Shown here piece after piece: positions 1 through 49,960 of a stretch of DNA of 64,000 bases; the first letter of the stretch is position 1; each line of letters starts with the position of its first letter. A program made the translations under genes and the position numbers. The notes below the pieces were generated by a model. The model saw only the letters and a program-made list of their open reading frames with translations, was not told the DNA's origin and did no database searches. Origin of the DNA: the human T2T-CHM13v2.0 reference genome, Homo sapiens; assembly GCA_009914755.4 (NCBI GenBank), contig CP068257.2, positions 12,000,001 through 12,064,000 of the forward strand. Direction: 5' to 3'.

Positions 1-1536
1 ACAGTAACCTATAATTTGTACTATACCAACTATGGTATAAAAACCTTAAAATGTATATTTCTGTTTCCTCTCTCCTTTATACTATTTATGTCATGCATTA
101 TAGTCTCAAATATTATGAATTCCATAATATAAAGTTACTTTTTTAAAAAAAAATTAGACAATCAATTATCTTTAGAGCAATGTAAAATAATTGGGTTATA
201 TATCTTTATATCTTCTCTGGCATTATTTATTTCTTTGTGTAGTTTCAACTTTCACCTGCTTCCATATTCCTTTTGCCTCAAGAAATGATTTTGACATTTA
301 TTTTAGTGCATACCTGTTAGCAAGGGACTCTTCCAGTGTTAATCTGCAAATGTCATTTAATTGTTATTTTTGCTGTATTACAGTTAATGGATATAAGATT
401 GGGGGTTGACTTTTCTTCAGTTATTTAAGAATTTTGTATCATTGGTTTCTGACTTGTAGAGTTACTGACAAGCAGTTCATTATAATGTTTGTTTCTGTTT
501 ATCTCTCTACACAGTGTTCCTATTTTTTCTGTGACTGAATTCAAGATTTATGGTAATCATTGGTTTTCAGCAGTTTGACTAGTGTGATTATTCTAGCGTT
601 CTTTAAATTTTGTATTAATCTTTCTTGGATATTTTGAGGTTATTTGGTCTCCTTAGTCATCTTTTTCAAATTTTTCTTCTCTCACATTCTGTTTTTACTT
701 TCCTTCTGTAATTCCAATTAATTATATTTTAGTTAATTTCATATTACCAGAAAATTCTTGGATTCACTGGAGTATTTTATTTGCTTGGTTTATTGGTTTA
801 TTTGGTTTTTCTCTTTCCTCCCTTTGTGCTACCATTCAAATGATTTGTATTGACCTAGTATAAAATTTACTGCTTCTTTCTTTAACTCTGATGACCAGTC
901 TGCTAATCAGCTTGCTGATGTAATTCATCTTTGTTCTCATGCTTTCACTTATTTCTAGATTTTGCCTTTTACTGTTCCCATCTTTGCTGAAATTCCTCAT
1001 TTTTCCATACATGTTGTATTTTTTAACTAGATCCTTTAACATTTTGATCATTATTATTTTAAATTACTTGCATTTAGTTCCAACATCTGAATTATCTCTG
1101 AATTTGATTCTGTTGACTTTTTATCCTTTGAAAATATTATAACTCATAACTCAAATTTCTAACTTGCTTTTATGTGTCTCCCAATTTCTAAAAAATGCAA
1201 ATCATCTGATGTAGAAAAACAGTAGATCATGAGATAATTATGTCGAGATTGTTTTATATTTCTGTTTCATTTTTATGTCATGCTATTAGTGTGGGCAGGA
1301 ACAAAGGTTGCTTTTTGCTGCGGTGTCTGAAACATTCAGTGACCAATGTAACTCAGATTTCTCCAGCAGTAGGCTGCTATGTGATGTGCCTTGTGTGGGG
1401 CCTTAGACTCTGGAGAGCATATGCCAATGATCCTGTTCCACAGTTAGCTTTCGGTAGTCCTTACCACCTATGTTATAGAGAGGGTCTCTCTCCACTTTCT
1501 TGTTCCTCTCTAACTGTAGAACATCATTTTGTGTAT

Positions 1537-1559
1537 ATGTGTGTGTGTGTGTGTGTGTG
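1537..1559. repeat. (TG)n microsatellite
   Basis: Uninterrupted gtgtgt run seen directly. Confidence 0.9.
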
Positions 1560-3375
1560 ACTAGGCAAAAAATTCAGGTTGGGGACAGAGGGATGATTCA
1601 TGTTATTTTTGAGCCAGTTTCATCATTGGACACTCACAGAAGGGGTATTTTTAACACTTCTTGACTCTTATTCTAGTGGGAGTCAAACTGTCACTTACCT
1701 GTGTTGTTTTTTGCAGAAGAAATAATACCTTACCCTCCTCCCACCTCAGTAGTAGAAAACCTCTGATTTATATCATTGCAAGTTTTCAACCCCACAATAA
1801 GGACAAACTCTTTTATTTCTCCTTCCATAGGAACAATATACCTTTGTCTGTGGTCACTGGATGGAGACTTTCCAAACCTTTACCACAGTAGCACGACTCT
1901 GCATTAGTGCAAAATCCTGGGCCCCAAAACAATCCTTGTTCCTCTCCTGATGGAGGAGTATTTTTCTTGCATCCCTCTCCCAGAAGCAGTGATCCTTTGC
2001 CTGGTATCAGGTGGGGTAGGGTAGGGTATGAGAGGTTTCTTAACCTTCTCTGAAAGCTGATGTGTTTTGCTTCTTCTTATCTCCCAGAAACAGTAGACTT
2101 TTGCATGGGTTCATGGACCCAGATGCTTTTTTGCCACAGCAAATTAAGGGTTTTGATTCTTAGGAGAGAAGCAAATGTTCATGTAGTCAATTTTTTTCTT
2201 ATTTATTTTTTGCTTTGTTTTCTTATTTCAGTAATGATGAGTTCAATATGATCATTATTTTCCACTTACACTGCTTGCAACTCTAATGTTTTGTTTTTGT
2301 TAGTCCCCCTTTGACAGTTCAGCACTAAATCAAATGCAGATAATCATCAGTTGTGTGAATAAAGTGTTTTTAATTGAGAACAAAATTGTTGATATAGACA
2401 CAAATTTGGATATTATCCTACTTAGCACAATATGTCGCTGGTTCAAAATGTAAAAACCTCTTTAGGCTGAAGAAAGAATGGTTCTTGGAACTATTGTCCC
2501 TTTTTGACAAATAAAATAAAACCCAATGCTTTTTATCTCATGGATAGATTATTAAAATAACTACATACCTGATCTTCATTTTATGTTCTCTCTCTTCAAG
2601 ATATTCCTTCAAAACTACTTTGACTGATTAGTCTCTTTTGAATTATGTTAGACTCTGTATTTTCTCCACAAGCTCATCAGGGTAAATCCTGCCTTTACAT
2701 TTTTTATAAAAATTCTCTTTTTTTTTCAAATCTTAGTTGAGCTGAAAGATTTCCACCAAATGTCTCCTATGCCAGAAAGCCTTATTTTACTTATCTCCCC
2801 TGTCCTCCTTGCTCAAGCTCATTTAGGAATATTTTAATTAAAACATTCATGCAATACTGTTTTTTAAAAAATCTGAACATATAGTATTTTCAATCTGAAT
2901 ACAAAATAGTGCTCTAATTTGAAAACAAGTTTTAGAAGCAAATGTTTCTAGAAGGAGAATCAACAGTGTCATAAATATCATAATCCAATTTTCCTGTTTG
3001 TACTAAAACATTAGCAAATATTTATTGAGAAATTGCCATCTGCCTGAAAGTATAATGCTTTTGATGCACATTATATCATAAAAACTAGGTACTATTATTA
3101 GTAGTATCTTAAGAGTAAAAATATTGAGTCTTAGAGAAGTTAAGCAATGTGCGCAAATAGCATAGGGAAAGTTGGAATTCTGAAATTCTGACTATGCTGT
3201 GCGTAGGTTAGGAGAATCAAGGCTTGTCAAATGTAACTGTTAAGTCATTGTGGGGATACGGAGGCCTCTGATTGCTAGGGTCAATACACTTAAGCAGATC
3301 ATGTCACTACTTAGTTAAATCTATTTCATTAAAGCAAAATTCCGTAAAGATTATTGGCACCAAAACTATTAATTT

Positions 3376-8814: not shown

Positions 8815-9392
8815 AAGGGAACACCGCCACATTGTTACACGCACACACCACCACACTGTCACATGTACAGACACACGGAGACATTACCACACGGACACAC
8901 CGTCACATGGACACACTGGCACATTCACATGGACGGACACACAGACATACGGAGAAATCCACACGGACACACCACCACACTATCACAGGGACACACAGAC
9001 ACACGGAGACATCACATGGACACACCACCACACTATCACAGGGACACACAGACACACAAGAGACATCACTACACTGTCACATGGACACACCATCACAGGA
9101 ACACACAAACACACTGCCACATGGACACTGCCACACACAGACACACCGCCACACTGTCACATGGACACACCTCCACACTGTCAGACACCACCACACAGAC
9201 ACTGCCATGTGGACACAAGGACACACAGACATTGTCACATGGATACACACACTGTCACACGGAGACATCACCATGCAGATACATGAACACACCACCACAT
9301 GGACATAGCACCACACAGACACTCTGCCACACGGACACACCACCACACAGACACACCACCACGCTGCCACACAGAGACACCACCACATCGTT
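8815..9392. repeat. Degenerate CA-rich minisatellite (~53-54 bp period, two near-identical units at ~8960-9066)
   Basis: Recurring cacatggacacaccaccacactatcacagggacacacagacacacggagacat units. Gives His/Thr-rich pseudo-ORFs in three frames. Confidence 0.8.
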
Positions 9393-9473
9393 GCCACATT
9401 TTCATGTGTCAGCTGGCGGTGTGGGCCCCACGACTCTGAGCTCTAATAGATAAATTACTTAGGCATATAGTGA

Positions 9474-20275: not shown

Positions 20276-23200
20276 TGCGCGAGGCGCGGGGAGCCTAGGA
20301 CCTGGAGCGAGAGCCGCCTACCTGCAGCCGCCGCCCACGGCACGGCAGCCATCATGGCGTTCCTGCTGCGCTTCGTGCTCCTGTGCGGAGTCGCGGATTT
20401 CACCAGAAGTTTGAGTATCACTACTCCTGAGCAGATGATTGAAAAAGCCAAAGGGGAAACTACCTATCTGCCATGCAAATTATGCTTAGTCCTGAAGACC
20501 AGGGACCACTGGACATTGAGTGGCTGATATCACCAGCTGATAATCAGAAGATGGATCAAGTGATGATTTTATATTCTGGAAACAAAATTTATGATGATTA
20601 CTATCCAGAACTGAAAGGCCGAGTACATTTTAAGAGAAATGATCTCAAATCTGGTGATGCTTCAATAAATGTAACGAATTTACAGCTGTCAGATATTGGC
20701 ACAGATCAGTGCAAAGTGAAAAAAGCTCCTGGTGTTGCAAATAAGATTCAGCTGGTAGTTCTTGTTAAGCCTTCAGGTACAAGATGTTATGTTGATGGAT
20801 CAGAAGAAATTGGAAGTGACTTTAAACTAAAATGTGAACCAAAAGAAGGTTCACTTCCATTACAGTATGAGTGGCAAAAATTGTCTGACTCACAGAAAAT
20901 GCCCACTTCATGGTTAGCAGAAATGACTTCATCTGTTATATCTGTAAAAAAAATGCTTCTTCTGAGTACTCTGGGACATACAGCTGTACATCAGAAACGG
21001 AGTGGGCTCTGATCAGTGCCTGTTGCGTGTAAACGTTGTCCCTCCTTCAAATAAAGCTGGACTAATTGCAGGAGCCATTATAGGAACTTTGCTTGCTCTA
21101 GTGCTCATTGGTCTTATCATCTTTTGCTGTCGTAAAAAGCGCAGAGAAGAAAAATACGAAAAGTAAGTTCATCACGATATCAGGGAAGATGTGCCGCCTC
21201 CAAAGAGCCGTACATCCGCTGCCAGAAGCTGCATAGGCAGTAATCATTCATCCCTGGGATCCATGTCTCCTTCCAACATGGAAGGATATTCCAAGACTCA
21301 GTATAAACAAGTACCGAGGGAAGACTTTGAACGCACTCCTCAGAGTCCGACTCTCCCACCTGCTAAGGTAGCTGCCCCTAATCTAAGTCGAATGGGCGTG
21401 ATTCCTGTGATGATTCCCGCACAGAGCAAGGATGGGTCTATAGTATAGAGCCTCCATACGTCTCATCTGTGCTCTCCGTGTTCCTTTCCTTTTTTGATAT
21501 ATGAAAACCTATTCTGGTCTAAATTTTGTTACTAGCCTCAAAATGTATCCAAAAATAAGTTAATCAGGAGCTGTAAGGAATATATTTTTTTAAATTTTTC
21601 TTTGGTTATATCGAAATAGTTACAGGCATTAAAGTTAGTAAAGACAAGTTTACCATCTGAAAAAGCTGGATTTTCTTTAAGAGGTTGATTATAAAGGTTT
21701 CTAAATTTATCAGTACCTAAGTAAGATGTAGCACTTTGAATATGAAATCATAAGTGAAGACATTGGTGAACTTACTTGCATACCAAGTTGATACTTGAGT
21801 AACCATCTGAAAGTGGTACTTGATAATTTTTACCGTTATTTTTAGGATGTGTATCTCATTTATTTATGGCCCACTAGTCTCCCCCAAATTAGTACAGAAA
21901 CATCCATGACAAAATTACACATGTGTGTTTGTACTTGTTTTCACAGCTCCTTGGAAAACTCTGTGTTAGGAATATCTCTAAAAACATAGAAAACTCTACA
22001 GTGGTTTAGAAATTACTAATTTTACTTCTAAGTCATTCATAAACCTTGTCTATGAAATGATTTCTTAAATATTTAGTTGATAGACTGCTACAGGTAATAG
22101 GGACTTAGCAAGCTCTTTTATATGCTAAAGGAGCATCTATCAGATTAAGTTAGAACATTTGCTGTCAGCCACATATTGAGATGACACTAGGTGCAATAGC
22201 AGGGATAGATTTTGTTGGTGAGTGGTCTCATGCCTTGAGATCTGTGGTGGTCTTTAAAATGGTGGCCAGCCAGATCAAGGATGTAGTATCTCATAGTTCT
22301 GGACTAAATACTGGCTTTCCACTTTAGGTGATATTTTTCTTATTAGAAAAATATTATAACTCATTTATTGTTTGACAGTTATAGATTGAAATTTCCTAAT
22401 TCTAAATTTTAAGTGGTTCTTCAGTTTCAGTGCTTTATGTTGTTTGTTGTTGGTTTGGCATGGCATTACATATTATATGTTCTAGAAACATGTAATCCTA
22501 AATTTACCCTCTTGAATATGATCCCTAGATGATATTTTTATCATAAATGCAGAATAATCAAATATATTTTAAGCAAGTAAGTGTCCTCCATCAATTCTGT
22601 ATTCCAGACGTGGGAGGATGTACAGTTGCTGTTGTGTGATCAAGCATGTCTCTGTGTAGTTCCAGCAAATCAAGCTGAGCTTTGAAAAAGTTTGAGTCTT
22701 AGTTTTGTGAAAGTGGTTTATTCTCAAAAAAAAAAAAAAGAAAAAGAAAAAGAAAAAAGATAAGAAGAAGGAGTAAAGGGACTACTCCTCCTTGCCAAAT
22801 GTGCTAAATATCATTTTAGGAGAAGAAAGTGGATTTATTGTATTTCCCTTAAGATTGTGAGGGAGTGTGGATACAGTAGAACGAGCCAACAGTTTCTTTA
22901 TAATAAATACGGTCTGCAATAAATTATTTCACTAGCTGTAAAACCTTTCCCTAGATTTTAGTAGGGAGTTGGTTTCTGTTAATATCTTTGGTGCTGTGGT
23001 GGTAAATGCTACATTATAAACAGTGGCATGTATTTACAGTTAGAGTATTGTGTGTACACTTTTTAATGGTAAACTTAAGCTGAATGTGTAATGGATTTGT
23101 CTATAGTTTTACATATTTGGAAGCATTTTAAAATAGGTTTTAATCTTACATAAAATTACTTTTATACTTGTGTTAACATTTTCTTCTGTGCCTTTTGGGT

Positions 23201-23775: not shown

Positions 23776-26255
23776 AGGAGTCCATGGCGCGGTGTGGGCC
23801 CTGCTGTGCCACAGTCCAGGGCACGGCTGGGCGCAGGTTCTCTCCTGCAAGAGTCCGCGGCTCTGCAGAGCAAGAGTTCTCCAGTGCCTTAGTCCAGGGT
23901 GAGGCAGGGGTGAGGCTCCTTCAGTAGCTCAGTCCAGGACGCAGCCCTGCGAGGGTCCTCCTGTGCAGGAGTACACGATGCTGCGGGGTCCTACTGTGCC
24001 TTAGTCCAGGACGCCAGGGGGCTGGGTCCTCTGCTGCCATAGTCCAGGGCGCGAGGGGCTGGGTCCTCTGGTGCCATAGTCCATGACGCAGGGAGGCTGG
24101 GTCCTCTGGTGCCATAGTCCAGGATGCGAGGGGCTGGGTCCTCTGCTGCCATAGTCCAGGGCCCGAGGGGGCTGGGTCCTCTGGTGCCTTAGTCCATGAC
24201 GCAGGGAGGCTGGGTCCTCTGCTGCCATAGTCCAGGATGCGAGGGGCTGGGTCCTCTGCTGCCATAGTCCAGGGCGCGAGGGGCTGGGTCCTCTGGTGCC
24301 ATAGTCCATGACGCAGGGAGGCTGGGTCCTCTGGTGCCATAGTCCAGGATGCGAGGGGCTGGGTCCTCTGGCGCCATAGTCCAAGACGCCAGGGGGCTGG
24401 GTCCTCTGGTGCCTTAGTCCCGGTCGCGGGGAGCTGGGTCCTCTGGTGCCATAGTCCAGGGTGCGGTGGAACAGGAGTCCTGCGGAGCAGTAGTCCAGGG
24501 CGCGCTGGGGCGTGGATCCTCAGGTGCCACAGTCCAGAGCGCGACAGGGCGGGATTCCTGCCTTGCTATATCCAAGGTGCAGCGGGGCGGGGGTTCTCTT
24601 GTTCAGGAGTCCAGGACGTGGCAGAGCCGGAGTCCTCCGTGTAGGAGTCCTCCGGTGCTGGAGTCCAGAGCACAGTGAGGCTGGGTCCTCCCGTGCCATA
24701 GTGTAGGGCATGGCGGGACAGGGATCCTGCCCTGCGATAGTCCAGTGCTTGAGTCCGCAGTAAGGCAATGGTCCTCCAATGCTGGAGTTCACGGCGTTGT
24801 GGGGTCGGGGTCCTTTGGTGACTTAGTCCAGGGCGTACCAGGGCGGGGGTCCACAGTTGCCATAGTGAGGATCTTGGAGGAAGGTGGTTCCTGCCTTGCT
24901 GTAGTCCGGGGAGCAGGGGGCAGGGGTCCTCTCTTGTCAGAGTCTCTGGCGCGGGGTGGGGGTGGAGGTGGGGGTTTTCCTATGCGATAGCCCACGGGTC
25001 GGTGAAGCCGGGTCCTCCCGTGCCTTTGTCCAGGGCGCAGGGGGGCGAGGGTCTTCGGTGGTGGAGTCCGCGGAGCGGCAGGACGGGGGTCCTCCAGTGC
25101 CATATTCCAGGGCGCGGCGGAGTGGGGGACCTGTCCTGCAGTGGTCCAGGGCATGTGGGAGTGGTGGTCCTGCTGTGCCTCAGTCCAGTGCGCGGTGGGA
25201 CGGCGGTCCTGCTGTGCTGTAGTGCAGGACGCGGTGGCGCAGGGGTAGTCCAGAGAGCGCCGTGGCAGGGGGTCCTCCAGTGCTGGAATCCAGTGCAAGG
25301 CGGGTCAGGGGTCTTACCGTGCCGAAGTCGGTGGCAAGGGTCCTCCCGTGCCATAGTCTAGGGGGCGACGGGGCAGGTTTCTCTAGTGCAGGTGTCCAGG
25401 GTGTGGCAGGGCAGGAGTCCTCTTGTGCAGGAGTCCAGGACGTAGCCGAGGAGTCCTCCAATGTCAGAGTCCAGGGCTCTGCGGGGCCGGGTTCCCCCAT
25501 GCCAGAGTGTAGGGCGCGTTCAGGTGAGGGTCTTGGCGTGCAGTAATCCAGGGTGCGGTGGGGCAGGGGTAGTCCAGACCTCCATGGCGGGCGTCCCTCT
25601 GTGCAGGAGCCCAGTGCCTGGCGGATCGGGGGTCCTTCTGTGCTGTAGTCCAGGGCACCGCAAGGTGTGGGTCCTCTGGTGCCCTAGTCCAGGGGGCGGC
25701 GAGTCAGAGGTTCTCCCGTGTCTCAGTCTAGGGCCTGGTAGGACTGGGGTCCTGGAGTCCACGTGGTAGCCCAAGTTGCCGCAGGACCAGGTACTCTGGA
25801 ACCACAGTCCAGGGCGCTGAGGGGCAGGAGTAGTTCAGGGCGAGCCGGGGCCCAGGTCCTCGGGAGCCAGAGTCCAGGGTGTGGAGGGGTGGGGGTTCTG
25901 CAGTGGCACAGTCCAGGACACCGCGGGGCGGGACAGGGCGGGGATCCTCCCGTGCCTTAGTCCAGGGCTGAGCCGCGGGAGAGGTCCTTCAGTAGCACAG
26001 TCTAGCGCACGGCGTTGCAGGTGTCCTCCAGTGCCTGAGGCCACGGCAGGTCGCGGGTCCCACTGTGCTCTAGTTCAGGGCGGAGTGGGTCTGAGGTCTT
26101 CTCCTGCCTCAGTCTAGGGCGCTGGAGAGCGGGGATCCTCTGGTACCGGAGTCAATGGATCCACGGGTCCGGGTCCTCCCATGTTTTAGCCCCGGGAGGG
26201 GAGAGGCGGGGGTCTTCCTTTGCCCTAGTCCAAGGCATTGTGAGGCCCCGCTCCT
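23775..26255. repeat. GC-rich minisatellite-type tandem array, unit ~37 bp (a few 38-40), ~60+ units. Homogenised 3-unit (111 bp) higher-order core at ~24020-24440; diverged flanks.
   Basis: Direct reading: gccatagtccagggcgcgaggggctgggtcctctggt / gccatagtccatgacgcagggaggctgggtcctctggt / gccatagtccaggatgcgaggggctgggtcctctgct, repeated in that order about three times with near identity. Monomers diverge progressively toward both ends. CpG-rich. Confidence 0.85.
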
Positions 26256-38526: not shown

Positions 38527-38804
38527 GCAGGTAGGGCAGAGTGGCTCAAACATATAATCCCACCACTGAGGAAGGTCAAGTTGGGAGGATCGCTTGAACT
38601 CCAGGCGTTCAAGACCTGCCTGGGCAACATGGTAAGACCCTGTCTCTCCAAAATATATATAAAATATAACAGCCAGGCATGATGGCACCTGCCTGTAGTC
38701 CCAGCTACCAGCTAATCAGGAGGCTGAGGTGACAGCATACCTTGAATCTGGGAGATTGAGGCTTCAGTGAGCTGTGATCATGACACTGCCCTCCAGCCTG
38801 GGTG
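38527..38804 (+). mobile_element. Alu SINE (sense), 3'-truncated exactly at the start of the ~300-bp tandem array
   Basis: ggcaggtagggcagagtggctcaaacatataatcccaccactgaggaaggtc...gagctgtgatcatgacactgccctccagcctgggtg, then GC-rich array sequence with no A-tail. Confidence 0.85.
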
Positions 38805-41800
38805 GCCCCTGGCCCCTCCACAACCTGCGCTAGAAGAGCTGGGCCCTGGCTCTGGGCACCATGCAGCCTCTAAGGTGGGGCTGAGCGCCAGTTCCTGCCC
38901 TCCTGCAGCTGGGGACCAATACCCTGACTTAGGCGCTGTGGAGGCTTCTGGCCCAAGGGTCCGCACTGCTGGTGGCACTGGCAGGGTCAGAGTTTGCCAC
39001 AGCTGCTGCTGCGCGCCTTGTGCAGGTTACCACTGCAGCTGAACCTACAGCAGAAGCAGGCAGGGCTGGTCCCAGACAGCCTGGGGGTCTCTAAGTGCAG
39101 GGCCCTTTCACCCTAGAGTCAGCTCTTTCTTGCCGGCACCCATAGCGGGGTGTGCAGGCGCTGGGTACAGGGCAGCAGCCAGGAAATGGCTGAGCGGCCT
39201 GTTCCCGCCCTCCTGCAGCTGGGGCCTGACCACCTGAATTAGCCGCTGGGCGAGGTCTGGCCCTGGGATCCGCCTGGCTGGTGTAGGAGCACGGTCTGGG
39301 GTTGCCTCCAAGGCTGCTGCGCGCGCCATGTGCAGGCAAGGGTTTCCCAGACAGCCTCAGGGTCATGGAGTGGACCACTGTCCCAGCCTGGAGTCCGCTC
39401 TTCCTTTGCCTGCTCCCAGAGTTCCGGGTCGCGGGCACTGGGAACTGTGCCGCCAAGGGGACTGGGCCGAGGGCAAAGGTTTCTGCCCTGCTGCAGCTGC
39501 GGGGCTGACTGCCTGAATTAGGCGCTGAGGCGGCGTTGTCCCTGGTGTCCTGGCTCTTGGTGGTGCAGGCAAAGTGCCCGGTTGCTCTGCTGCTGCGGCG
39601 CCGTTGTACAGGTGGCAGCTGTAGCTGAGTTCTCAGTAGGGGCCGGCAGGGTTGGTCCTAGAAAGCGTGAGGATCGCCGAGTGCACTGCCCTCCCAGCCT
39701 AGGGTCCACTCTTCCTTGGCCCGAGCCCAGAGCTCGGGGTTTCAGGCGCTGGGCCCTGTGCAGCTGCCCAGAATAGGCTGAGCGGCAGGTTCCCGCCCTG
39801 GCAAGGGATCCAGCAGTGGAATCCTCACTGCTGTTGGCTGCGGGCAAGGTCAGCGGGGTTTCCATCGCTGCTGGTGGGAGCCACCTGGCGGTGGTAGCTG
39901 CAAGTGAGCGCGTGGCAGAGACTGGCAGGGCTGGTCCCAGACACCCTGAGGGTCTCTGGGTGCATCGCCCTACCACCCTAGGGTCTGCTCTTCCTTAGCC
40001 TGCTCCCAGGACGCGGTGTACGAGGGCTAGACTCTGAGCAGCCTCCAGGATGGGGCTGAGCAGCGGATTCCTGCCCTGCTGCAGCTACAGTCTGAATTAG
40101 GCGCCACCGCAGTATCTGGCCCTGGGGTACGTGCTACTGGGTGGCATGGACAGAGATGGGGGCTGCCACAGCTGCTATGGGGCTGAGCAGCCGATTCTCG
40201 CCCTGCTGCAGCGGGCGACCGCTGCAATCCCCAGCGCTATGGGACCGACCACCTGACTTAGATGCCTTGGAGGCATCCGGTCCTGGGGTCTTGCTGCTGG
40301 TGTCTGCGGGCAGGGTCACGGCTGCCACTACTACTGCTGTGCGCCATGGGCAGGTGCCAGCTGCAGCTGAGTCCGAGGCAGATGCTGTCAGGGCTGGTCT
40401 GAGGTTGCCTAAGGGTGGCTGAGTGCACCACGCTTCCACCCCAGGGTCCGTTATTCCTAGGCCGGCTCCCAGATTGCAGGGTTGTGGGCGTTGGACACTG
40501 TGCAGCCATGAGGATCTGGTTGGGTGCAGATTCCCGCCCTCCTGCAGCTGAGAAGCCAATCTCATAACAGGCGCTGCAGTGACCTCTGGCTCTGCGGTCC
40601 GCGCTGCTGCTGGAGCTGGCAGAGAACAGAGCTGCCACCGCTGCTGCTTCCAGGAGTGTGCAGCTGGCAGCTGCAGCTGAGCCCGTGGCGGAGGCTGGAA
40701 GGCCTTATTCCAGAAGCCTTGAGGGTCCCCGAATGCACCGCCCTCCCACCCTAAGGTCCAGTCTTCCTTGCCCGCGCCCAGAGAGTTGGATTGCAGGCGC
40801 TGAGCACAGTGCAGGTGCTGGGATGGGGCTAAGCTGAAAGTTTCCGCCCTCTGGCTGCTGCGGGGCCGACAGCCTGAGTTATGCGCCGCGGCGGCTTTTG
40901 GTCATGGGATCCGCACTGCCGGTGGCTTGCACAGGGTCGGGGGCTGCCACAGCTGCTATAGTTCACCGTGTGCACGTGGCAGCCGCCCCTGAGCCCACCG
41001 CTGAGGCTGCAGGGCTGGTCCGGTCCCAGACGGCCTGAGGGCCATTTGCCCGCGCCCAGATCCGGGTGGCTGCGCTGGGCACTGTGCAGCCTCCCGGAAT
41101 CCGCTGAAGGGCACGTTCCCGCTCTCCTACAGCTGTGGGCCGACTGCCTGATTTTGGCCACTAGGTGGAGTCTGGCTCTAGGGTTTCGAGGCCGCTGGTG
41201 TTGGTGGGCGGAGTCCGGGTTTGCCACCGCTGCGCTCCATGAGCAGGTAGCAGCTGCAGCGGAGCTTTAGACCGAGGCTGGCAGGGCTGGCCCCAGACGG
41301 CCTGAGGGTCAGGGAGTGCAGGGTCCTCCCACCCTAGGTCCGCTCTTCCTTTGCCCTTACCCAGAGCGGGTTGTGCGGGCTCTGGGCTCTGTGCCGGCGC
41401 TGGGCTCTGTGCAGCCGCCGAGATGGGGCTGAGCAGCGGATTTCCTCCCTGCTGCAGCTGGAGGACGATTACCTGCACTAGCCGCTGAGGCGGCATCTGG
41501 CCCTGGGTTACTGCAGCTGGTGACGCGGGCAGGGTCAGGGTTGGTTGCAGGTGGCAGCTGCTGCTAAACCCATTGCGAGCCTCAGGGTCACCAAGTTCAC
41601 CGTCCTTTCATCATAGTATCTGATCTTTGGCCCGCGCCCAGAGTGCGGACTGGCCTGCGCTGGGGACTGCATAGCTTCTGGGGGCCGGTCAGCGCCAGTT
41701 TCACGTCCTCCTGCAGCTGCGTGGCCTAAGGTCTTAGGCGCCGCGGCGCTATCTGGCCCTGCTGTCGACGCTGCTGGTGGTGGGGACAGGGTCAAGGGTT

Positions 41801-42150
41801 GCCACTGCTGCTCCCGTGCGCCATCGGCAGGTGGCAGTTGCAGATGAGCCCACAATTGAGGCTGTTGGGGCTGCTCCCAGGTTGTTAGAGGGTCGCCGAG
41901 TTCACCGACATGCCACCCTAGGTTACGCTCTTGGCCCGCACCCAGAGCGCCGGGTTACGGGTCCTGGGCCCTGTGCAGCCACGGGGATGGTGCTGAGTGC
42001 AGGTTCCCGTCTTCCTGAGATGCGGGGCGACCACTGGAATTAGCCTCTGTGGTGGTATCTGACCCTAGGGTCCGAGCTGCTGGTGGCGTGGGCGGGGTCG
42101 AAGTCGCCTCTGTTGCTGCGGCGTGCCATTTGCACCGTCCTCTGGTACAG
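38805..42150. repeat. GC-rich macrosatellite-like tandem array, unit ~270-345 bp, ~11 diverged copies
   Basis: Landmark motif ctgagc(a/g)gc(g/c)..ttcc(c/t)gccct(c/g)ctgcagctg(g/c)gg recurs at ~38877, 39190, 39470, 39780, 40050, 40530, 40830, 41110, 41430, 41690, 41995. Also recurring: ctgaattaggcgctg, ggtccgctcttcct, ggctgccacagctgct. Copies look ~70-85% alike by eye. Confidence 0.8.
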
Positions 42151-45100
42151 GCTGGTCTGTGCTGTGCATGGTCAATGTAGTCTTCTCTGGGCATTCTTCA
42201 CAGATATCTGCTGGCATGGCTCATCTTCTCTTTGATTTTGCATGTATTGTCACCCACTGATGAAGTTTCTGGTCACCTGCCATTTTCCTCTAGCCACCAA
42301 GACCTCACATTCTGAGGCCAGCATGTCCCACCAGGGGCCCCCACTGGCCCTGTCAAACCAGTTGTGAGTCCCCCTCCCACCAAGCTTGGAGAGACTGGCT
42401 TTTCAGACAGCACTCACAAGCTGAGAGTAAGGGAATTGATCTCTTAGGCACTTCCCCCTGTCCTGCCACTCTGTCATTCCTGGAACACCCTATGTGCACT
42501 AGAGAAGTAAGACATCAGCCTGCATATTTTCTCATCTTTCTTTAACTGTCTATTTTTTCCTATCTATCTGTATGAGTGAGTCCCAGGAAGATGTTGGGGC
42601 TGAATACCTGATCAGAGACACAGGCAGAGCCATAGTCACATCTCCTGGGAACTTTCTTCTTCCTGTGTAATTAAAAGCTCTTCTCTTCCTCTTGTTCATA
42701 GAAATTCCCCTTACACTAAACCTTTGAAACCATCCCCTCAGCTTGATAAAATTTTAGACAGGATTATTTCTGATTCTTGGCTCCTGGCCTCTTTTATTAG
42801 CATATTTTAGAAATGTTATCATTGTAAATTCTCTCTCTGCCTCTTTGATATATAAATCTTTTTAAGAGCCCATCTGCCAGTTTTACACTTCAGAAATGTC
42901 CATTTCAAGGACCTCAGAGCCATTCCTTTGAAATGTAATCCTCAAGAAAGATAACACCATTATCTCCCAGACTCCATAAGAGAGTAAGAGCCAAATTATG
43001 GTGGGCATATTGCTCTGATTTGTAAAATTACCTTCTGTCATAAAGATAAGATAGTTTAATGTTCCTTTGGAAAAAGACAACTGTCAAAAACAAGTGGCCT
43101 ATGATCACCCCCTCATCCCAGCTCTTAAAATCTCTACTGCTGTTTGTTTCAGTGGAGCTGAGTTCAGACTAAGTTCTGGCCTCTTTGTCCTTTTGCAATA
43201 GCCTTCAATAACAGCTTTTTTATGTGTTTAACTTTGTCTGGTGCAATTGTTTTCTTTGACACTTTCCACCCTAACTAGAACTTCCATTAAAGTCATAGTA
43301 GGATTCAAGGCAGCCAAACTCGACTCACATACGTAAAAAAACTTCTTAGGATGTAGAAACCCATATTCTCTTCAATAAATTGTTTCTTCAGACCATTGCC
43401 TTATTAAAAGTTTCTAGTTCTTATTTTGGCATTGAAAAGCAGAACACCAATTTTTAAATAAGTCTCTGCTCACTTTTAATTTCTGCTATAACAATTTTAT
43501 TGCTTTCCATGGCTGAACAACGAGAAGACCAGAACACAATTTTAAATTAAATTTTATTTAATTTTTACTATTACAATTTTATTTCTTTCTCTGACTGAAA
43601 GAAGAAAACTCGAATAAAGTAGTCTAGTGTATAAAGTGAAGACTAGAACAAAGAATAATGTCTTATTAATACATTTCAGAAAGTTACCTCCATTTAACAT
43701 CAATGGTGTCATTTAATATTCTTAACTTTCCTATCAAGTAGATGCTATTATTATCTCTATTTTATAGGATATTAAGTCTTATATATTATACATAACCAGC
43801 TGAAGGTCATGTAGCATGTAGATATGATAGGAATACAAAGAAACAATGACATTAGAAGCAGAGGAGGGAGAAGGATTACAAGGCTAAACCTAGGTCAGTT
43901 AAGAGAAAAAGAAAAACTAGGAGAAGACAAATTCTTGTTAGAAAAAAAAAAATGATTGAGGCAGAGCAAGACAGTGGTGCAGACCTCTCCAGCTATCGTA
44001 CCCCTATAGAAACATCAATATGAACAACTGTCCACATGTGAAATTACCATTACAAGAGCCAACAGAACCTCAATACATGAACAAGGTTATGAAGCACCTT
44101 TAGCCTGTGAAGATGGGTGAAACCATGGCTTATGCAGTGAGAGAACCAATACTCTGTGACTGTGATACTCTTCCCTCAGGCCGTTATGGTACCATCTGCA
44201 GAAACTCCCACAGGGCTTATAGTTTTTACACTGAAGAAAGTGAGCAGGAGTTTGATATTTGTTTTTTCCACTATATTGAGTTCTTTCACAGTAGCCTCAC
44301 TCCTGTATCAGCCCACAAGTGGCACCATGAGTGCCAAAAGGGATGAACCACCTGAGGCATGTTAATGACATAAGAGGAGGTGGGGCCAGCGACAGCCACC
44401 ATGTGAAACATAATACACAGACTCTACAGGCTTGACGGCCTGACTTGTTCTCCCCCATAGCCAGGGGCTCCCTGTGGATCACCCATGGGCCCAGCCAGCA
44501 AATGTTGCATCAGTGGAGCCATTGGAAGACTTACGTCTAACATGGGATTTGGGCTCTCTCTAACGTTAAACTGGAATACGATGATAAGTCCACTCAAAAT
44601 TTCTTAATAGGCCCACTTAAAAGTAGTCACAAGCAAACCCAGACTGAGAAGACTCAAATAAACATCTAATTCATCAATGTGTAGACAGAGATGTATATCT
44701 ACATATAATAATGATAGCTTAGGAAAAGTTCCCTCTCCAAATGGACAAAACAAGGTGTCAGCAACTGAACTTAAAGACATACAGATGAATGATCTGGCAG
44801 GCAAATAATTCAAAATGGCTGTCTTAAGAAGAGCCTGAACACTGAGAAGCAGAGACACAATTCAGAAATTTACCAGAGAAATTCAACAAAGAAATCAAAA
44901 TAATGGGAAAAATCACATGTAAACCCTGGAGCAGGAAAGTTCAATGAACACATTGAAAATCCAACGGAAGCCATCAACAGAAGGAAGAACTGATCAAGCA
45001 GAAGAAAGAAACATTGAGCTCAAACAACAGGCTCTTTGAAAATACATGGTCAGAGTAAAATGAAAAAAAAGAATGAAAAGAAACAAAGAAAGTTTATGAG

Positions 45101-47925: not shown

Positions 47926-49082
47926 CAGGATCCGATGCTTACACTGCTGAATTCTTCAAAACATTTAAAGAGGAACTTATAGTAATTATTTACAAATTAT
48001 TACAAAAAAAGTGAAAAGGAGGAAACTCTTCCAAACTCATTCTATGAAGACACAATTACCATATTCCAAAATGAGACAAGAACAGTAAAAAACTAAACTA
48101 CAGGCCAATATCACTGATGAACATGAATGCAACAATTCAAAACCAGCAATGCTAGCAATCATAATTTGGAAGTGCATTAAAAAGATGATTCACCATAATC
48201 AGGTTGTATTTGTTCCAGGGAGGCAAGGAGGGCTTATGATATGTCAATCAATAAATGTGATACACCACATTTGATAAGGGAAGATAAAAAAATAGTCATT
48301 TAAATAGATACAGAAAAAGTATTTGACAAAATTCAATGTTTTTTGTAAACATAAGATCTCTTAACAAATTAGTTATAAAAAGAACATAGCTCCATAAAAT
48401 AAAGGCCATATATGATAACCCACAGCCAACATGATACTGAATAAGGAAAAATTGAAAACTGTGTCTCTAAGGTCTAGAACAAGACAAGGATGTTCACTTT
48501 AATAACTTCTCTTCAACATAGCACTGGAAGTCCTAGCCAGAGCAATTAGGCCAGCAAAAGAAAAGACATCCAAATTGAAAAACAAAAATAAAGTCAAATT
48601 GTCCCTGTTTGCAGATGACATGATCTTATGTATAAAAAACCCTAAATACTCTACTGAAAAAACAGAAATAGTAAATGAATACAGTAAAGTTTTAGAATAC
48701 AAAATCAGCATAGAAAAATCAGTCGCATTTCTATACCCAACAGCATACCATCTGAAAAAGGAATCAAGAAACCAATCCCATTTAAAATAGCTATAAAAAA
48801 ATGCCTGGGAATAAACTAAGCCAAATAAATATGTCTAAAATGAAAACTATAAAACATTGATAAAAATCAATTGAAAAAGATACAAATAAAGGGAAAGTTA
48901 TCCCATTTTTATGAATTAGAAGTATTAATACTGTTAAAATGACCATCATACTCAAATCAGTCTATAGGTCCAATACAATCTCTAACAAATTTCCAATGTA
49001 ATTCTTCAGAGATGTTAAAAAAGGTTTTAAAAATCGTTCTGCGGATGTTAAAAGGATTTTTAAAACGCTTTTTTCGTTCTGC

Positions 49083-49960
49083 AGGCGAAGGCTGTGGCCG
49101 TGCTCCCGCCGGCCAGTTCCCAGCAGCAGCGCATTGCCCCTGCTCCACGCCTTCGCTCCAGGCCCGCAGGGGCGCAGCCCCGCGGGAATCAGCACTGAGC
49201 CGGTCCCGCCGCCGCCCCAGTGTCCGGGCTGCGACTGCGGGGAGCCGATCGCCCAGCGATTGGAGGTGGGCGACGAGGCCTTCCGCCAGAGCGAGTACCA
49301 GAAAGCAGCCGGGCTCTTCCGCTCCACGCTGGCCCGGCTGGCGCAGCCCGACCGCGGTCAGTGCCTGAGGCTGGGGAACGCGCTGGCCCGCGCCGACCGC
49401 CTCCCGGTGGCCCTGGGCGCGTTCTGTGTCGCCCTGCGGCTCGAGGCGCTGCGGCCGGAGGAGCTGGGAGAGCTGGCAGAGCTGGCGGGCGGCCTGGTGT
49501 GCCCCGGCCTGCGCGAACGGCCACTGTTCACGGGGAAGCCGGGCGGCGAGCTTGAGGCGCCAGGCTAGGGAGGGCCGGCCCTGGAGCCCGGCGCGCCCCG
49601 CGACCTGCTCGGCTGCCCGCGGCTGCTGCACAAGCCGGTGACACTGCCCTGCGGGCTCACGGTCTGCAAGCGCTGCGTGGAGCCGGGGCCGAGCGGCCAC
49701 AGGCGCTGCGCGTGAACGTGGTGCTGAGCCGCAAGCTGGAGAGGTGCTTCCCGGCCAAGTGCCCGCTGCTCAGGCTGGAGGGTCAGGCGCGGAGCCTGCA
49801 GCGCCAGCAGCAGCCCGAGGCCGCGCTGCTCAGGTGCGACCAGGCCCTGTAGCTGTGACTTGGCTGTGGGGCTGGCCCGCCTCCCTGACCCCTGTCAGGC
49901 GGAGCAGCTGGAGCTGACCCACGGGCCTGGGCTTTCGAGCGCTTTGTCCAGGCGCTAATG
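49083..49960 (+). pseudogene. LONRF2P: LONRF2-like 5' coding-exon fragment (N-terminal region + first RING finger), CpG-rich. Looks like an unprocessed duplicated fragment with an in-frame stop and frameshift.
   Basis: ORF 49134-49568: ...EPVPPPPQCPGCDCGEPIAQRLEVGDEAFRQSEYQKAAGLFRSTLARLAQPDRGQCLRLGNALARADRLPVALGAF...LRPEELGELAELAGGLV..., then ...LLGCPRLLHKPVTLPCGLTVCKRCVEPGP...LQRQQQPEAALLRCDQAL. This matches my recollection of the LONRF2 N-terminus. Beyond ~49960 homology is lost; aag|gtgaaaggtggg donor-like and ttttgtcttttccag|g acceptor-like sites follow, consistent with genomic rather than mRNA origin. Confidence 0.55.

What the first reader, a model, noticed from the sequence alone, without database searches (positions are those of the whole stretch)
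38527..42150. ~300-bp-unit GC-rich tandem array that begins exactly at a truncated Alu
About 11 diverged copies of a ~270-345-bp GC-rich unit with recurring landmarks (ctgagcRgc..ttcccgccctSctgcagctg; ctgaattaggcgctg; ggtccgctcttcct; ggctgccacagctgct). The array starts at 38805, immediately after an Alu that stops at ...ctccagcctgggtg with no A-tail. So the array or its seed was placed into or next to the Alu, or the Alu was cut by the duplication that brought the array. A ~135-bp spacing at ~40050-40185 suggests a partial unit or internal deletion. The array is unrelated in sequence to the 37-bp array 12 kb upstream. The dense both-strand ORFs here (39091-42194) are repeat/GC artefacts.
Basis: seen in the sequence. 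Interest (0 to 1): 0.55.

Follow-up and report, generated by a model that had tools for sequence, protein, structure and literature searches.

The report
Old decayed ~300-bp repeat array in duplicated DNA
This is a real but very old and decayed, non-coding run of about twelve ~300-bp GC-rich repeats, related to repeats found just upstream of ANKRD20A-family genes, that was cut off at a broken Alu and then copied many times as part of a primate segmental duplication; it is ordinary genome debris, not a new kind of element.

Summary
Window 38805-~42140 is a head-to-tail array of 12 unit matches (10 near-full units of 259-325 bp, one 195+266-bp partial pair, one 3'-truncated unit). It is 65% GC, and units are 71-83% identical to each other. 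It starts directly after an Alu that lacks its last ~20 bp and A-tail. TRF misses the array; k-mer spacing, a single-unit BLAST and a unit HMM all find it, and only there in the 64 kb.

It is not an active satellite and does not code for protein. The same Alu junction, unit order, partial units and right end recur in many human-metagenome contaminant contigs that are 91-96% identical to the window and 1-10% different from each other. So the architecture was fixed before a module of at least 10 kb spread as a multi-copy segmental duplication.

Diverged homologous units (4-5 copies) lie directly upstream of the promoter and exon 1 of ANKRD20A-family genes in human contigs and a langur assembly. 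The window holds no such exon, so its array is an orphaned relative of that 5'-flank repeat. The Alu end resembles the in-phase end of a unit, which suggests a microhomology-assisted breakpoint.

Identity with named satellites (LSAU, SATR) could not be tested by sequence. Interest is low.

The parts
38527..38804 (+). Old Alu truncated at its 3' end. It is intact at the 5' end and stops at about consensus position 260-265, with no A-tail. This is the left breakpoint of the array-bearing segment.
   Evidence: The sequence was read directly. No orphan Alu tail occurs in the window. The same junction is present in L002, L005 and the other covering paralogs.
38805..38838 (+). 34-bp junction stretch (GCCCCTGGCCCCTCCACAACCTGCGCTAGAAGAG). 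It occupies the place of the first ~35 bp of a unit but is poorly alignable. It is either a badly decayed unit start or filler at the breakpoint.
   Evidence: Alignments A1 and A2. Similarity to L003 stops at window 38839. L003 is suspected to be a chimeric contig, and its ANKRD20A-type sequence begins near this point, so this end of similarity is weak evidence for a breakpoint.
38805..39980 (+). Units U1-U4 (310, 278, 311 and 277 bp). U2 carries a window-specific deletion of ~30-35 bp at about 39338.
   Evidence: nhmmer hits at 38812-39115, 39124-39389, 39393-39701 and 39704-39980. Paralogs carry 30-35 extra bases at 39338.
39981..40443 (+). Partial pair. One unit is truncated at model position 207 (39983-40177) and is followed by a unit that starts at model position 73 (40177-40442). 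This equals one unit with an internal ~130-bp duplication, or two units with a ~180-bp deletion.
   Evidence: nhmmer model coordinates. Landmarks lie 127 bp apart, at 40068 and 40195. The same arrangement is present in L010, L016, L019, L011 and L017.
40444..41917 (+). Units U7-U11 (310, 275, 325, 259 and 305 bp).
   Evidence: nhmmer hits at 40446-40753, 40756-41043, 41043-41336, 41338-41612 and 41617-41920.
41918..42150 (+). Last unit, U12, truncated at model position ~223. The right end of the array falls in mid-unit. GC content drops beyond it.
   Evidence: nhmmer hit at 41927-42134, model positions 13-223. The same truncation occurs in L010, L016 and L019. Composition profile.

Best explanation
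The feature is a fossil tandem array: a ~300-bp GC-rich non-coding unit that was amplified head to tail, presumably by unequal exchange or replication slippage, long before the human/Old World monkey split. It then stopped exchanging between copies, and the copies have since decayed independently to about 75% identity.

The unit family also occurs as 4-5 diverged copies directly upstream of the CpG-island promoter and exon 1 of ANKRD20A-family genes. The window's array is a 12-unit relative of that repeat. Its promoter-side end lacks promoter and exon 1 and is instead joined to a 3'-truncated Alu.

The last ~20 bp of the Alu resemble the in-phase end of a unit. The join was therefore probably made by a microhomology-assisted rearrangement, of the Alu-associated kind common at segmental-duplication boundaries.

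After the junction, the unit order and both truncated ends were fixed, a module of at least 10 kb containing them was copied to many sites as a segmental duplication.

In this window the array most likely does nothing. It has no promoter partner, no coding capacity and no known RNA.

Shown: the periodicity, the shared architecture among paralogs, homologous units upstream of ANKRD20A-type exon 1, and the absence of coding signal. Inferred: the mechanism of amplification, the direction and mechanism of the Alu join, the ages, and the lack of function.
For: Array and its limits.

Unit relationships:
- All units are roughly equidistant at 71-83% identity.
- There is no lag-2 excess (lag-1 mean 76%, lag-2 mean 74%), so there is no recent homogenisation and no higher-order repeat.

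Paralogs:
- 18 distinct contaminant contigs from metagenome or Logan assemblies are colinear with the window at 86-96% identity and differ from one another by 1-10%.
- L019 covers window 45179-36193 and L016 covers 46392-38914, with only small indels.
- L010, L016 and L019 show the identical 12-hit architecture, including the partial pair and the truncated last unit.
- The same Alu/array junction occurs in L002 and L005 and in the other covering contigs.

Gene-linked relatives:
- An exon-1 peptide found on L003 is 100% identical to a Homo sapiens hypothetical protein. Its relatives are named ANKRD20A5 (Trachypithecus) and C21orf81.
- Independent human-metagenome contigs L021 and L022, and the langur assembly locus L007, each carry 4-5 unit-HMM hits (E 1e-8 to 1e-23) ending 500-600 bp upstream of exon 1.
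- L021 and L007 are colinear through these units at 83-89% identity.
- These units are 70-84% identical to the window's units, the same range as within the window.

Orphan status: no ANKRD20A-like or POTE-like exon is found in the window.

Microhomology: the Alu's last 24 nt score highest in the whole array at in-phase positions. The score is 16 at 39677, against a null 99th percentile of 12 over 3290 windows.

Non-coding:
- No Pfam match.
- Substitutions by codon position are 16/9/11, 6/4/6, 6/4/8, 7/4/9 and 6/5/7.
- No Rfam family matches.

Background: Alu elements are enriched at segmental-duplication junctions (PMC2566985, citing Bailey et al. 2003).
Against: - No contig matches the window at ~100% within the array, so the window's own locus and species are not pinned down. 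The best array match is 95.5-96%; a LONRF-like ORF 7 kb away has a 99% match.
- The paralog set comes from low-coverage (2-4x) metagenome assemblies, which can be chimeric. L003 almost certainly is. The count of at least 12 paralogs is therefore soft.
- The link to ANKRD20A rests on diverged units (25-77 bits against 114-261 bits for the window's own). It shows common descent of the unit family. It does not show that the window's array was copied from an ANKRD20A gene.
- In-phase similarity to the Alu end is strong at one unit boundary and modest at the others (scores 9-12).
- Lack of function is inferred from absence of evidence. No expression, methylation or binding data were available.
Confidence: 0.72

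Rival explanations
1. The array is a member of a named human GC-rich satellite family (LSAU, SATR1/2 or gamma-satellite-like). It would be behaving as pericentromeric satellite DNA.
For: - It is GC-rich and tandem.
- It sits in a mosaic that looks pericentromeric: a CXADR processed pseudogene and a LONRF-like exon fragment. The pericentromeric assignment itself is from memory.
Against: - Gamma satellite has 220-bp units embedded in alpha satellite (PMC7767330). Here the period is 259-336 bp, and TRF shows no 171-bp or 68-bp arrays in the window.
- Units are only ~75% alike, number 12, and have the same architecture in every paralog. A homogenising satellite would not look like this.
- The unit occurs nowhere else in the 64 kb.
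- Sequence identity to LSAU or SATR consensus sequences could not be tested, because no Dfam/Repbase library was available.
Confidence: 0.07
2. The array was born where it now lies, next to an Alu that was already truncated. The first tandem duplication began inside the Alu's last ~25 bp, so every unit carries an Alu-derived end. The gene-linked arrays would then be derived from this locus rather than the reverse.
For: - The Alu end is most similar to the in-phase ends of units.
- The window-type array is longer: 12 units against 4-5.
Against: - Similarity of the Alu end to most unit ends (9-12 of 24) is far below the ~75% identity between units.
- The unit consensus as a whole shows no Alu similarity above shuffled controls (score 11 against 10.5 +/- 1.1).
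- This model leaves the Alu truncation itself unexplained.
- The langur and human gene-linked arrays show no adjacent Alu at that end.
Confidence: 0.15
3. The array is a functional cis-element or RNA source. Candidates are an E-box-dense tandem enhancer, silencer or insulator, or a small-RNA or lncRNA template. On this view it is retained upstream of ANKRD20A-family promoters and preserved in the orphan copies.
For: - 21 CAGCTG palindromes lie in 3.3 kb, against 32 in the other 60.7 kb.
- The unit family persists next to ANKRD20A-type promoters in human and langur.
- Unit number is unchanged among paralogs.
- CpG observed/expected reaches 0.5-0.7 in the right half.
Against: - The E-box excess follows from repeating a unit that contains the motif.
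- Stable unit number is expected once units are only 75% alike.
- Paralogs diverge at about the same rate inside the array (94-96% identity) as over the contigs including their flanks (91-95%). Some paralogs have lost three or more units (L005, L017, L020).
- The window copy has no promoter partner.
- No Rfam match.
Confidence: 0.08
4. The array is, or recently was, a protein-coding repeat: an exon encoding ~100-residue tandem domains.
For: ORFs of 110-152 aa lie on the minus strand. Gene callers predicted 84-242-aa products on paralogous contigs.
Against: - No Pfam match.
- The only homologs among 5.8 billion proteins are six ORFs from contaminant contigs.
- Unit lengths (310, 278, 311, 277, 310, 275, 325, 259, 305) break the reading frame.
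- Substitutions show no third-position excess.
- ORFs occur on both strands, as expected at 65% GC.
Confidence: 0.02

Closest known systems
Tandem repeat in the 5' flank of ANKRD20A-family genes (ANKRD20A1-4, ANKRD20A5P, C21orf81/ANKRD20A11P)
   Same: Homologous ~300-bp units are detected with the window-derived HMM immediately upstream of the promoter and exon 1 in L021, L022 (human) and L007 (langur). Identity to the window's units is 70-84%, the same range as among the window's own units. Their orientation relative to the gene places the window's Alu junction on the promoter side.
   Different: The gene-linked arrays have 4-5 units and continue into a CpG-island promoter and exon 1. The window array has 12 units, no promoter or exon, and ends at a truncated Alu. 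No one-to-one correspondence of units was found. I found no published description of this repeat.
Segmental-duplication (duplicon) junctions at Alu elements
   Same: A module of at least 10 kb is present in many copies at 90-96% identity. One internal boundary, the array start, lies exactly at a broken Alu. Alu enrichment at such junctions is established (PMC2566985, citing Bailey et al. 2003).
   Different: Here the Alu junction lies inside the duplicated module and predates its spread. It is not the edge of the copies sampled: paralogs stay colinear for at least 3.9 kb to the left of the Alu.
Gamma satellite, LSAU and SATR GC-rich satellites
   Same: GC-rich tandem DNA in what looks like a pericentromeric setting.
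   Different: The period is ~300 bp, not 220 bp. No alpha- or beta-satellite is associated. There are only 12 highly diverged copies with fixed architecture. Sequence identity to these families was not testable here.
Minisatellites/VNTRs and macrosatellites (D4Z4, DXZ4)
   Same: Head-to-tail, CpG-containing repeat near a gene promoter in its gene-linked relatives.
   Different: Classical VNTRs and macrosatellites have highly similar units and variable copy number. Here units are ~75% identical, and copy number is the same in all full-length paralogs. The unit is about ten times smaller than macrosatellite units.

Membership tests
Tandem repeat array (generic) | Head-to-tail copies of one unit with a regular period, beyond chance | tested here: met
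   Twelve HMM hits abut one another from 38812 to 42134. A single-unit BLAST hits only inside the array. k-mer offset peaks lie at 270-310 and 580-590 bp.
Gamma satellite | 220-bp GC-rich unit embedded in alpha satellite | tested here: not met
   Units are 259-336 bp. TRF reports no 171-bp or 220-bp array in the window. The definition is taken from PMC7767330.
LSAU | Sequence similarity to the LSau consensus (the part of D4Z4 that hybridises with LSau probes) | not testable with these tools
   No Dfam/Repbase library or D4Z4 sequence was available. LSau is used as a D4Z4 probe in PMC1852401.
LSAU | Association with 68-bp beta-satellite or D4Z4 blocks | tested here: not met
   No 68-bp-period array appears anywhere in the 64-kb TRF output.
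Polymorphic minisatellite/VNTR | Highly similar units and variable copy number between alleles or copies | tested here: not met
   Units are 71-83% identical. L010, L016 and L019 share the same 12-hit architecture. Allelic variation within a population was not testable.
Segmental duplication | At least 1 kb present at more than one locus with at least 90% identity | tested here: met
   Thirteen loci from one scan, plus six earlier ones, are colinear over 1-9 kb, almost all at 90.6-96% identity (L005 about 86%). They are mutually distinct. Caveat: these are low-coverage contaminant contigs, not a reference genome.
ANKRD20A-family 5'-flank repeat | Units homologous to those upstream of ANKRD20A-type exon 1 | tested here: met
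   The window-unit HMM hits 4-5 units in each of L021, L022 and L007 (E 1e-8 to 1e-23), ending 500-600 bp before exon 1. The exon-1 relatives are named ANKRD20A5 and C21orf81.
ANKRD20A-family 5'-flank repeat | Array adjoins the family's promoter and exon 1 | tested here: not met
   tblastn with the exon-1 peptide, and blastn with the L003 promoter region, find nothing in the window. An Alu occupies that side.
CpG island | GC above 50%, CpG observed/expected above 0.6, length over 200 bp | tested here: inconclusive
   GC is 62-66% in all units. CpG observed/expected is 0.19-0.70 per unit and reaches or exceeds 0.6 only in U8, U11 and U12.
Alu-derived tandem repeat | Unit alignable to the Alu consensus | tested here: not met
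   The best local score is 11, against 10.5 +/- 1.1 for shuffles. The unit HMM hits none of the window's other Alus.

The most novel reading that the evidence does not exclude
The ~300-bp unit family could be a conserved, E-box-dense tandem regulatory or epigenetic module of ANKRD20A-family promoters. The orphaned 12-unit copies scattered by segmental duplication might then keep some activity, such as enhancer or silencer function, heterochromatin nucleation or small-RNA production, at many pericentromeric sites.
Probability: 0.06. Interest if true: 0.45.

Novelty: new member of a known kind. Interest (0 to 1): 0.15.

Why it matters
The main value is for annotation. TRF does not detect this array, and gene callers turn it into spurious ORFs in contaminated metagenome assemblies: six such "proteins" are in the public protein collection. 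Recognising it as a fossil repeat carried by a multi-copy primate duplication explains those ORFs.

It also gives a datable internal marker for reconstructing the history of ANKRD20A-related duplicons: a fixed Alu junction, a partial unit and a truncated end. It does not open a new biological question unless the units prove to have promoter-linked activity.

Tried and rejected
- TRF at minimum score 30 found no ~300-bp array. The copies are too diverged, so k-mer offsets, MAFFT and an HMM were used instead.
- Dimeric higher-order repeat. The strongest k-mer peak is at 580-590 bp. The identity matrix shows no lag-2 excess. Each short unit has a different deletion, and one of these is window-specific. 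The peak comes from alternating unit lengths, so this idea was rejected.
- Unit derived from Alu: rejected.
- Coding repeat: rejected.
- Known RNA family: none.
- The bacterial-type promoter/terminator scan is irrelevant here.
- L003 first seemed to show the window-type array running straight into ANKRD20A-type exon 1. Its positions 300-935 are nearly identical to L019. From position 969 it matches L021 and L022, whose upstream units are much more diverged. I treat L003 as a probable chimeric assembly and rest the gene link on L021, L022 and L007.
- Look-up of the human protein P0007 for its chromosome-scale contig failed because the gene is not on record.
- The scan of bacterial genome contigs found nothing.
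- The Mandrillus C21orf81-like locus L027 has an inverted duplication at exon 1 and no units, so it was uninformative.
- L007's 45-bp repeats are unrelated to the window's 37-bp array.
- Literature searches on ANKRD20A with tandem repeats, and on CXADRP3/POTEC, found no description of this array.
- The (GCC)2 "colony" reported in ANKRD20A5P intron 15 (PMC10880355) is probably unrelated, since by eye GCCGCC is rare in the array (not counted).
Full report
**Setting.** The window is primate DNA. It has many Alus. It carries an intron-less CXADR copy at 20354-21445 that matches solved CXADR structures at E 4e-95. An ORF in a CpG island at 49134-49568 is 66% identical to the N-terminus of a RING-type-domain protein of Marmota and has a 99% match in a contaminant contig. 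From memory it looks like LONRF2 exon 1, but that name was not tested. GC content rises to 64-66% across 39-42 kb.

**Check of the observation.** TRF reports nothing with a ~300-bp period, even at score 30. The array is nonetheless clear by other methods:
- The repeat finder returns families of 4-9 copies spaced 270-330 bp or multiples of that.
- 8-mer offsets peak at 270-310 and 580-590 bp.
- Twelve segments align into one consensus.
- An HMM built from the units gives 12 abutting hits from 38812 to 42134 and no hit in the remaining 60 kb.
- As a non-circular check, unit U7 alone finds nine other places by BLAST, all inside the array.

Ten hits are near-full units of 259-325 bp. The ~135-bp spacing is a unit cut at model position 207 followed by one starting at position 73 (39983-40177 and 40177-40442). 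The last unit stops at model position 223 (42134).

It ends at CCTGGGTG with no tail, and no orphan Alu tail lies elsewhere in the window.

**State of the array.**
- Pairwise identity between units is 71-83%.
- Neighbouring units are not closer than distant ones, and there is no lag-2 excess.
- The 580-590-bp k-mer peak therefore reflects alternating unit lengths, not a dimeric higher-order repeat. The short units carry different deletions, and the one in U2 is specific to this window.
- The pattern is a single old amplification followed by independent decay.
- CpG observed/expected is 0.19-0.70 per unit at about 65% GC.
- The ORFs of 110-152 aa have no Pfam match.
- Unit lengths break any reading frame.
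- Differences from five paralogs are spread evenly over codon positions.
- No Rfam family matches.

**Related sequences.** A protein search with the 152-aa ORF found only six ORFs, all from metagenome or Logan contigs. Those contigs, and 13 more from one metagenome scan, are host contamination. They are colinear with the window at 86-96% identity. Apart from one duplicate, they differ from each other by 1-10%. That points to a multi-copy segmental duplication, with the caveat that 2-4x assemblies may be mosaics.

L019 spans window 45179-36193 and L016 spans 46392-38914, with only small indels. L010, L016 and L019 show the same 12-hit architecture, including the partial pair and the truncated last unit. 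Every contig that reaches the left end has the same Alu/array junction. The junction and the array layout were therefore fixed before the module spread.

Some copies have lost units. L005 lacks about 955 bp. L017 and L020 join window-equivalent 41233 directly to 53352.

**Link to a gene family.** Beyond its array part, contig L003 carries a CpG island and an exon encoding MKLFGFGSRRGQTAQGS...DKQHR. This peptide is 100% identical to a Homo sapiens hypothetical protein. Its relatives are named ANKRD20A5 (Trachypithecus) and C21orf81.

L003 itself is probably chimeric. Its positions 300-935 are almost identical to L019. From position 969 onward it matches two independent human-metagenome contigs, L021 and L022, whose upstream sequence is different. 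Those two contigs and the langur assembly locus L007 each carry 4-5 diverged units (HMM E 1e-8 to 1e-23) that end 500-600 bp before exon 1. L021 and L007 are colinear through the units at 83-89% identity.

Gene-linked units are 70-84% identical to the window's units, the same range as within the window. The unit family therefore predates the separation of the two kinds of locus.

If L021 and L007 are orthologous, inter-unit divergence is about 2.5 times the human/Old World monkey divergence. That would place the amplification roughly around early primate evolution. This estimate is an inference.

The orientation of the gene-linked arrays puts the window's Alu junction on the promoter side.

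**The junction.** The Alu's last 24 nt resemble the sequence that precedes unit starts. The best score in the whole array (16) is at the in-phase position 39677. Other top scores are also in phase, against a null 99th percentile of 12. The unit as a whole is not Alu-like.

I read this as a microhomology-assisted join between an Alu 3' end and a unit. That fits the known excess of Alus at duplication junctions (PMC2566985). The alternative, that the array arose in place with a first duplication starting inside the Alu, is less likely. Most unit ends match the Alu end far less well than units match each other.

The 34 bp at 38805-38838 remain poorly explained.

**Comparison with known families.**
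- Gamma satellite (220 bp, embedded in alpha satellite; PMC7767330) does not fit by period or by neighbours.
- LSAU is part of D4Z4 and its beta-satellite blocks (PMC1852401). No beta-satellite is present, but sequence identity could not be tested.
- It is not a VNTR or macrosatellite in behaviour: the units are diverged and the copy number is fixed.
- It qualifies as part of a segmental duplication.
- It qualifies as a relative, not a member, of the ANKRD20A 5'-flank repeat, because the promoter and exon are missing.
- I found no paper that describes this repeat.

**Verdict.** This is a real, ancient, decayed, non-coding tandem array. It was orphaned at an Alu breakpoint and carried passively by a multi-copy duplication. 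It is ordinary in kind, and useful mainly for annotation and for reconstructing duplicon history. The regulatory reading rests only on the enrichment of CAGCTG motifs (21 in 3.3 kb) and on the persistence of the units next to ANKRD20A-type promoters. I give that reading about 6%.

Noticed in passing
window 20354-21445 (+): Intron-less CXADR (coxsackievirus and adenovirus receptor) copy with an interrupted reading frame.
   Followed up: partly
window 49134-49568 (+), CpG island ~49000-49700: 144-aa ORF in 70%-GC DNA. It is 66% identical to the N-terminus of a Marmota RING-type-domain protein (PF15227) and has a 99% match on an ENA contaminant contig. From memory it resembles LONRF2 exon 1, so it is likely a duplicated exon-1 fragment.
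   Followed up: partly
window 23986-24537, within GC-rich 24000-26000: 37/75-bp tandem array (7.3 copies of a 75-bp unit, 83% matches) inside a 65-67% GC block with ORFs on both strands. It is not related to the 300-bp unit or to the 45-bp repeats of L007.
   Followed up: partly
window 8888-9400: Complex CACACGGA-type repeat with nested 8/16/24/40/53-bp periods. It produces long His/Thr-rich artefactual ORFs.
   Followed up: no
L017 1062/1063 and L020 1222/1223, equivalent to window 41233 | 53352: Two independent paralogous contigs join the array at window-equivalent 41233 directly to window-equivalent 53352. This is a 12.1-kb indel relative to the window. It removes the last three units, the right flank and the LONRF-like CpG island.
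   Followed up: partly
L003 1-3105: Probable chimeric metagenome contig. Positions 300-935 are almost identical to window-type paralog L019, and positions 969-3105 are ANKRD20A-type promoter and exon 1 as in L021 and L022. The switch lies in a conserved unit motif.
   Followed up: yes
L007 6900-8000 (Trachypithecus francoisi VVIV01000501.1): A run of ~45-bp tandem repeats lies just distal to the 300-bp units upstream of the ANKRD20A5-like exon 1. It has no counterpart next to the window's array.
   Followed up: partly
L027 9248-10410 (Mandrillus leucophaeus KN973055.1): The C21orf81-like exon 1 sits at an inverted duplication: L021 2090-2482 matches L027 9638-9248 in reverse. No 300-bp units lie upstream.
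   Followed up: no
window ~39338 and ~40236: The window lacks 30-35 bp at about 39338, in unit U2, that all five compared paralogs have. It also differs from two of those paralogs by a 25-bp indel at about 40236.
   Followed up: partly
window 38906-41719: 21 CAGCTG palindromes (E-box core) lie within the 3.3-kb array, against 32 in the other 60.7 kb. This is most simply a by-product of repeating a unit that holds 2-3 copies of the motif.
   Followed up: partly
public protein collection: P0001-P0006: ORFs called on human-contaminant contigs of metagenome and Logan assemblies over this array are stored as 84-242-aa proteins. They are spurious proteins created by host contamination.
   Followed up: partly
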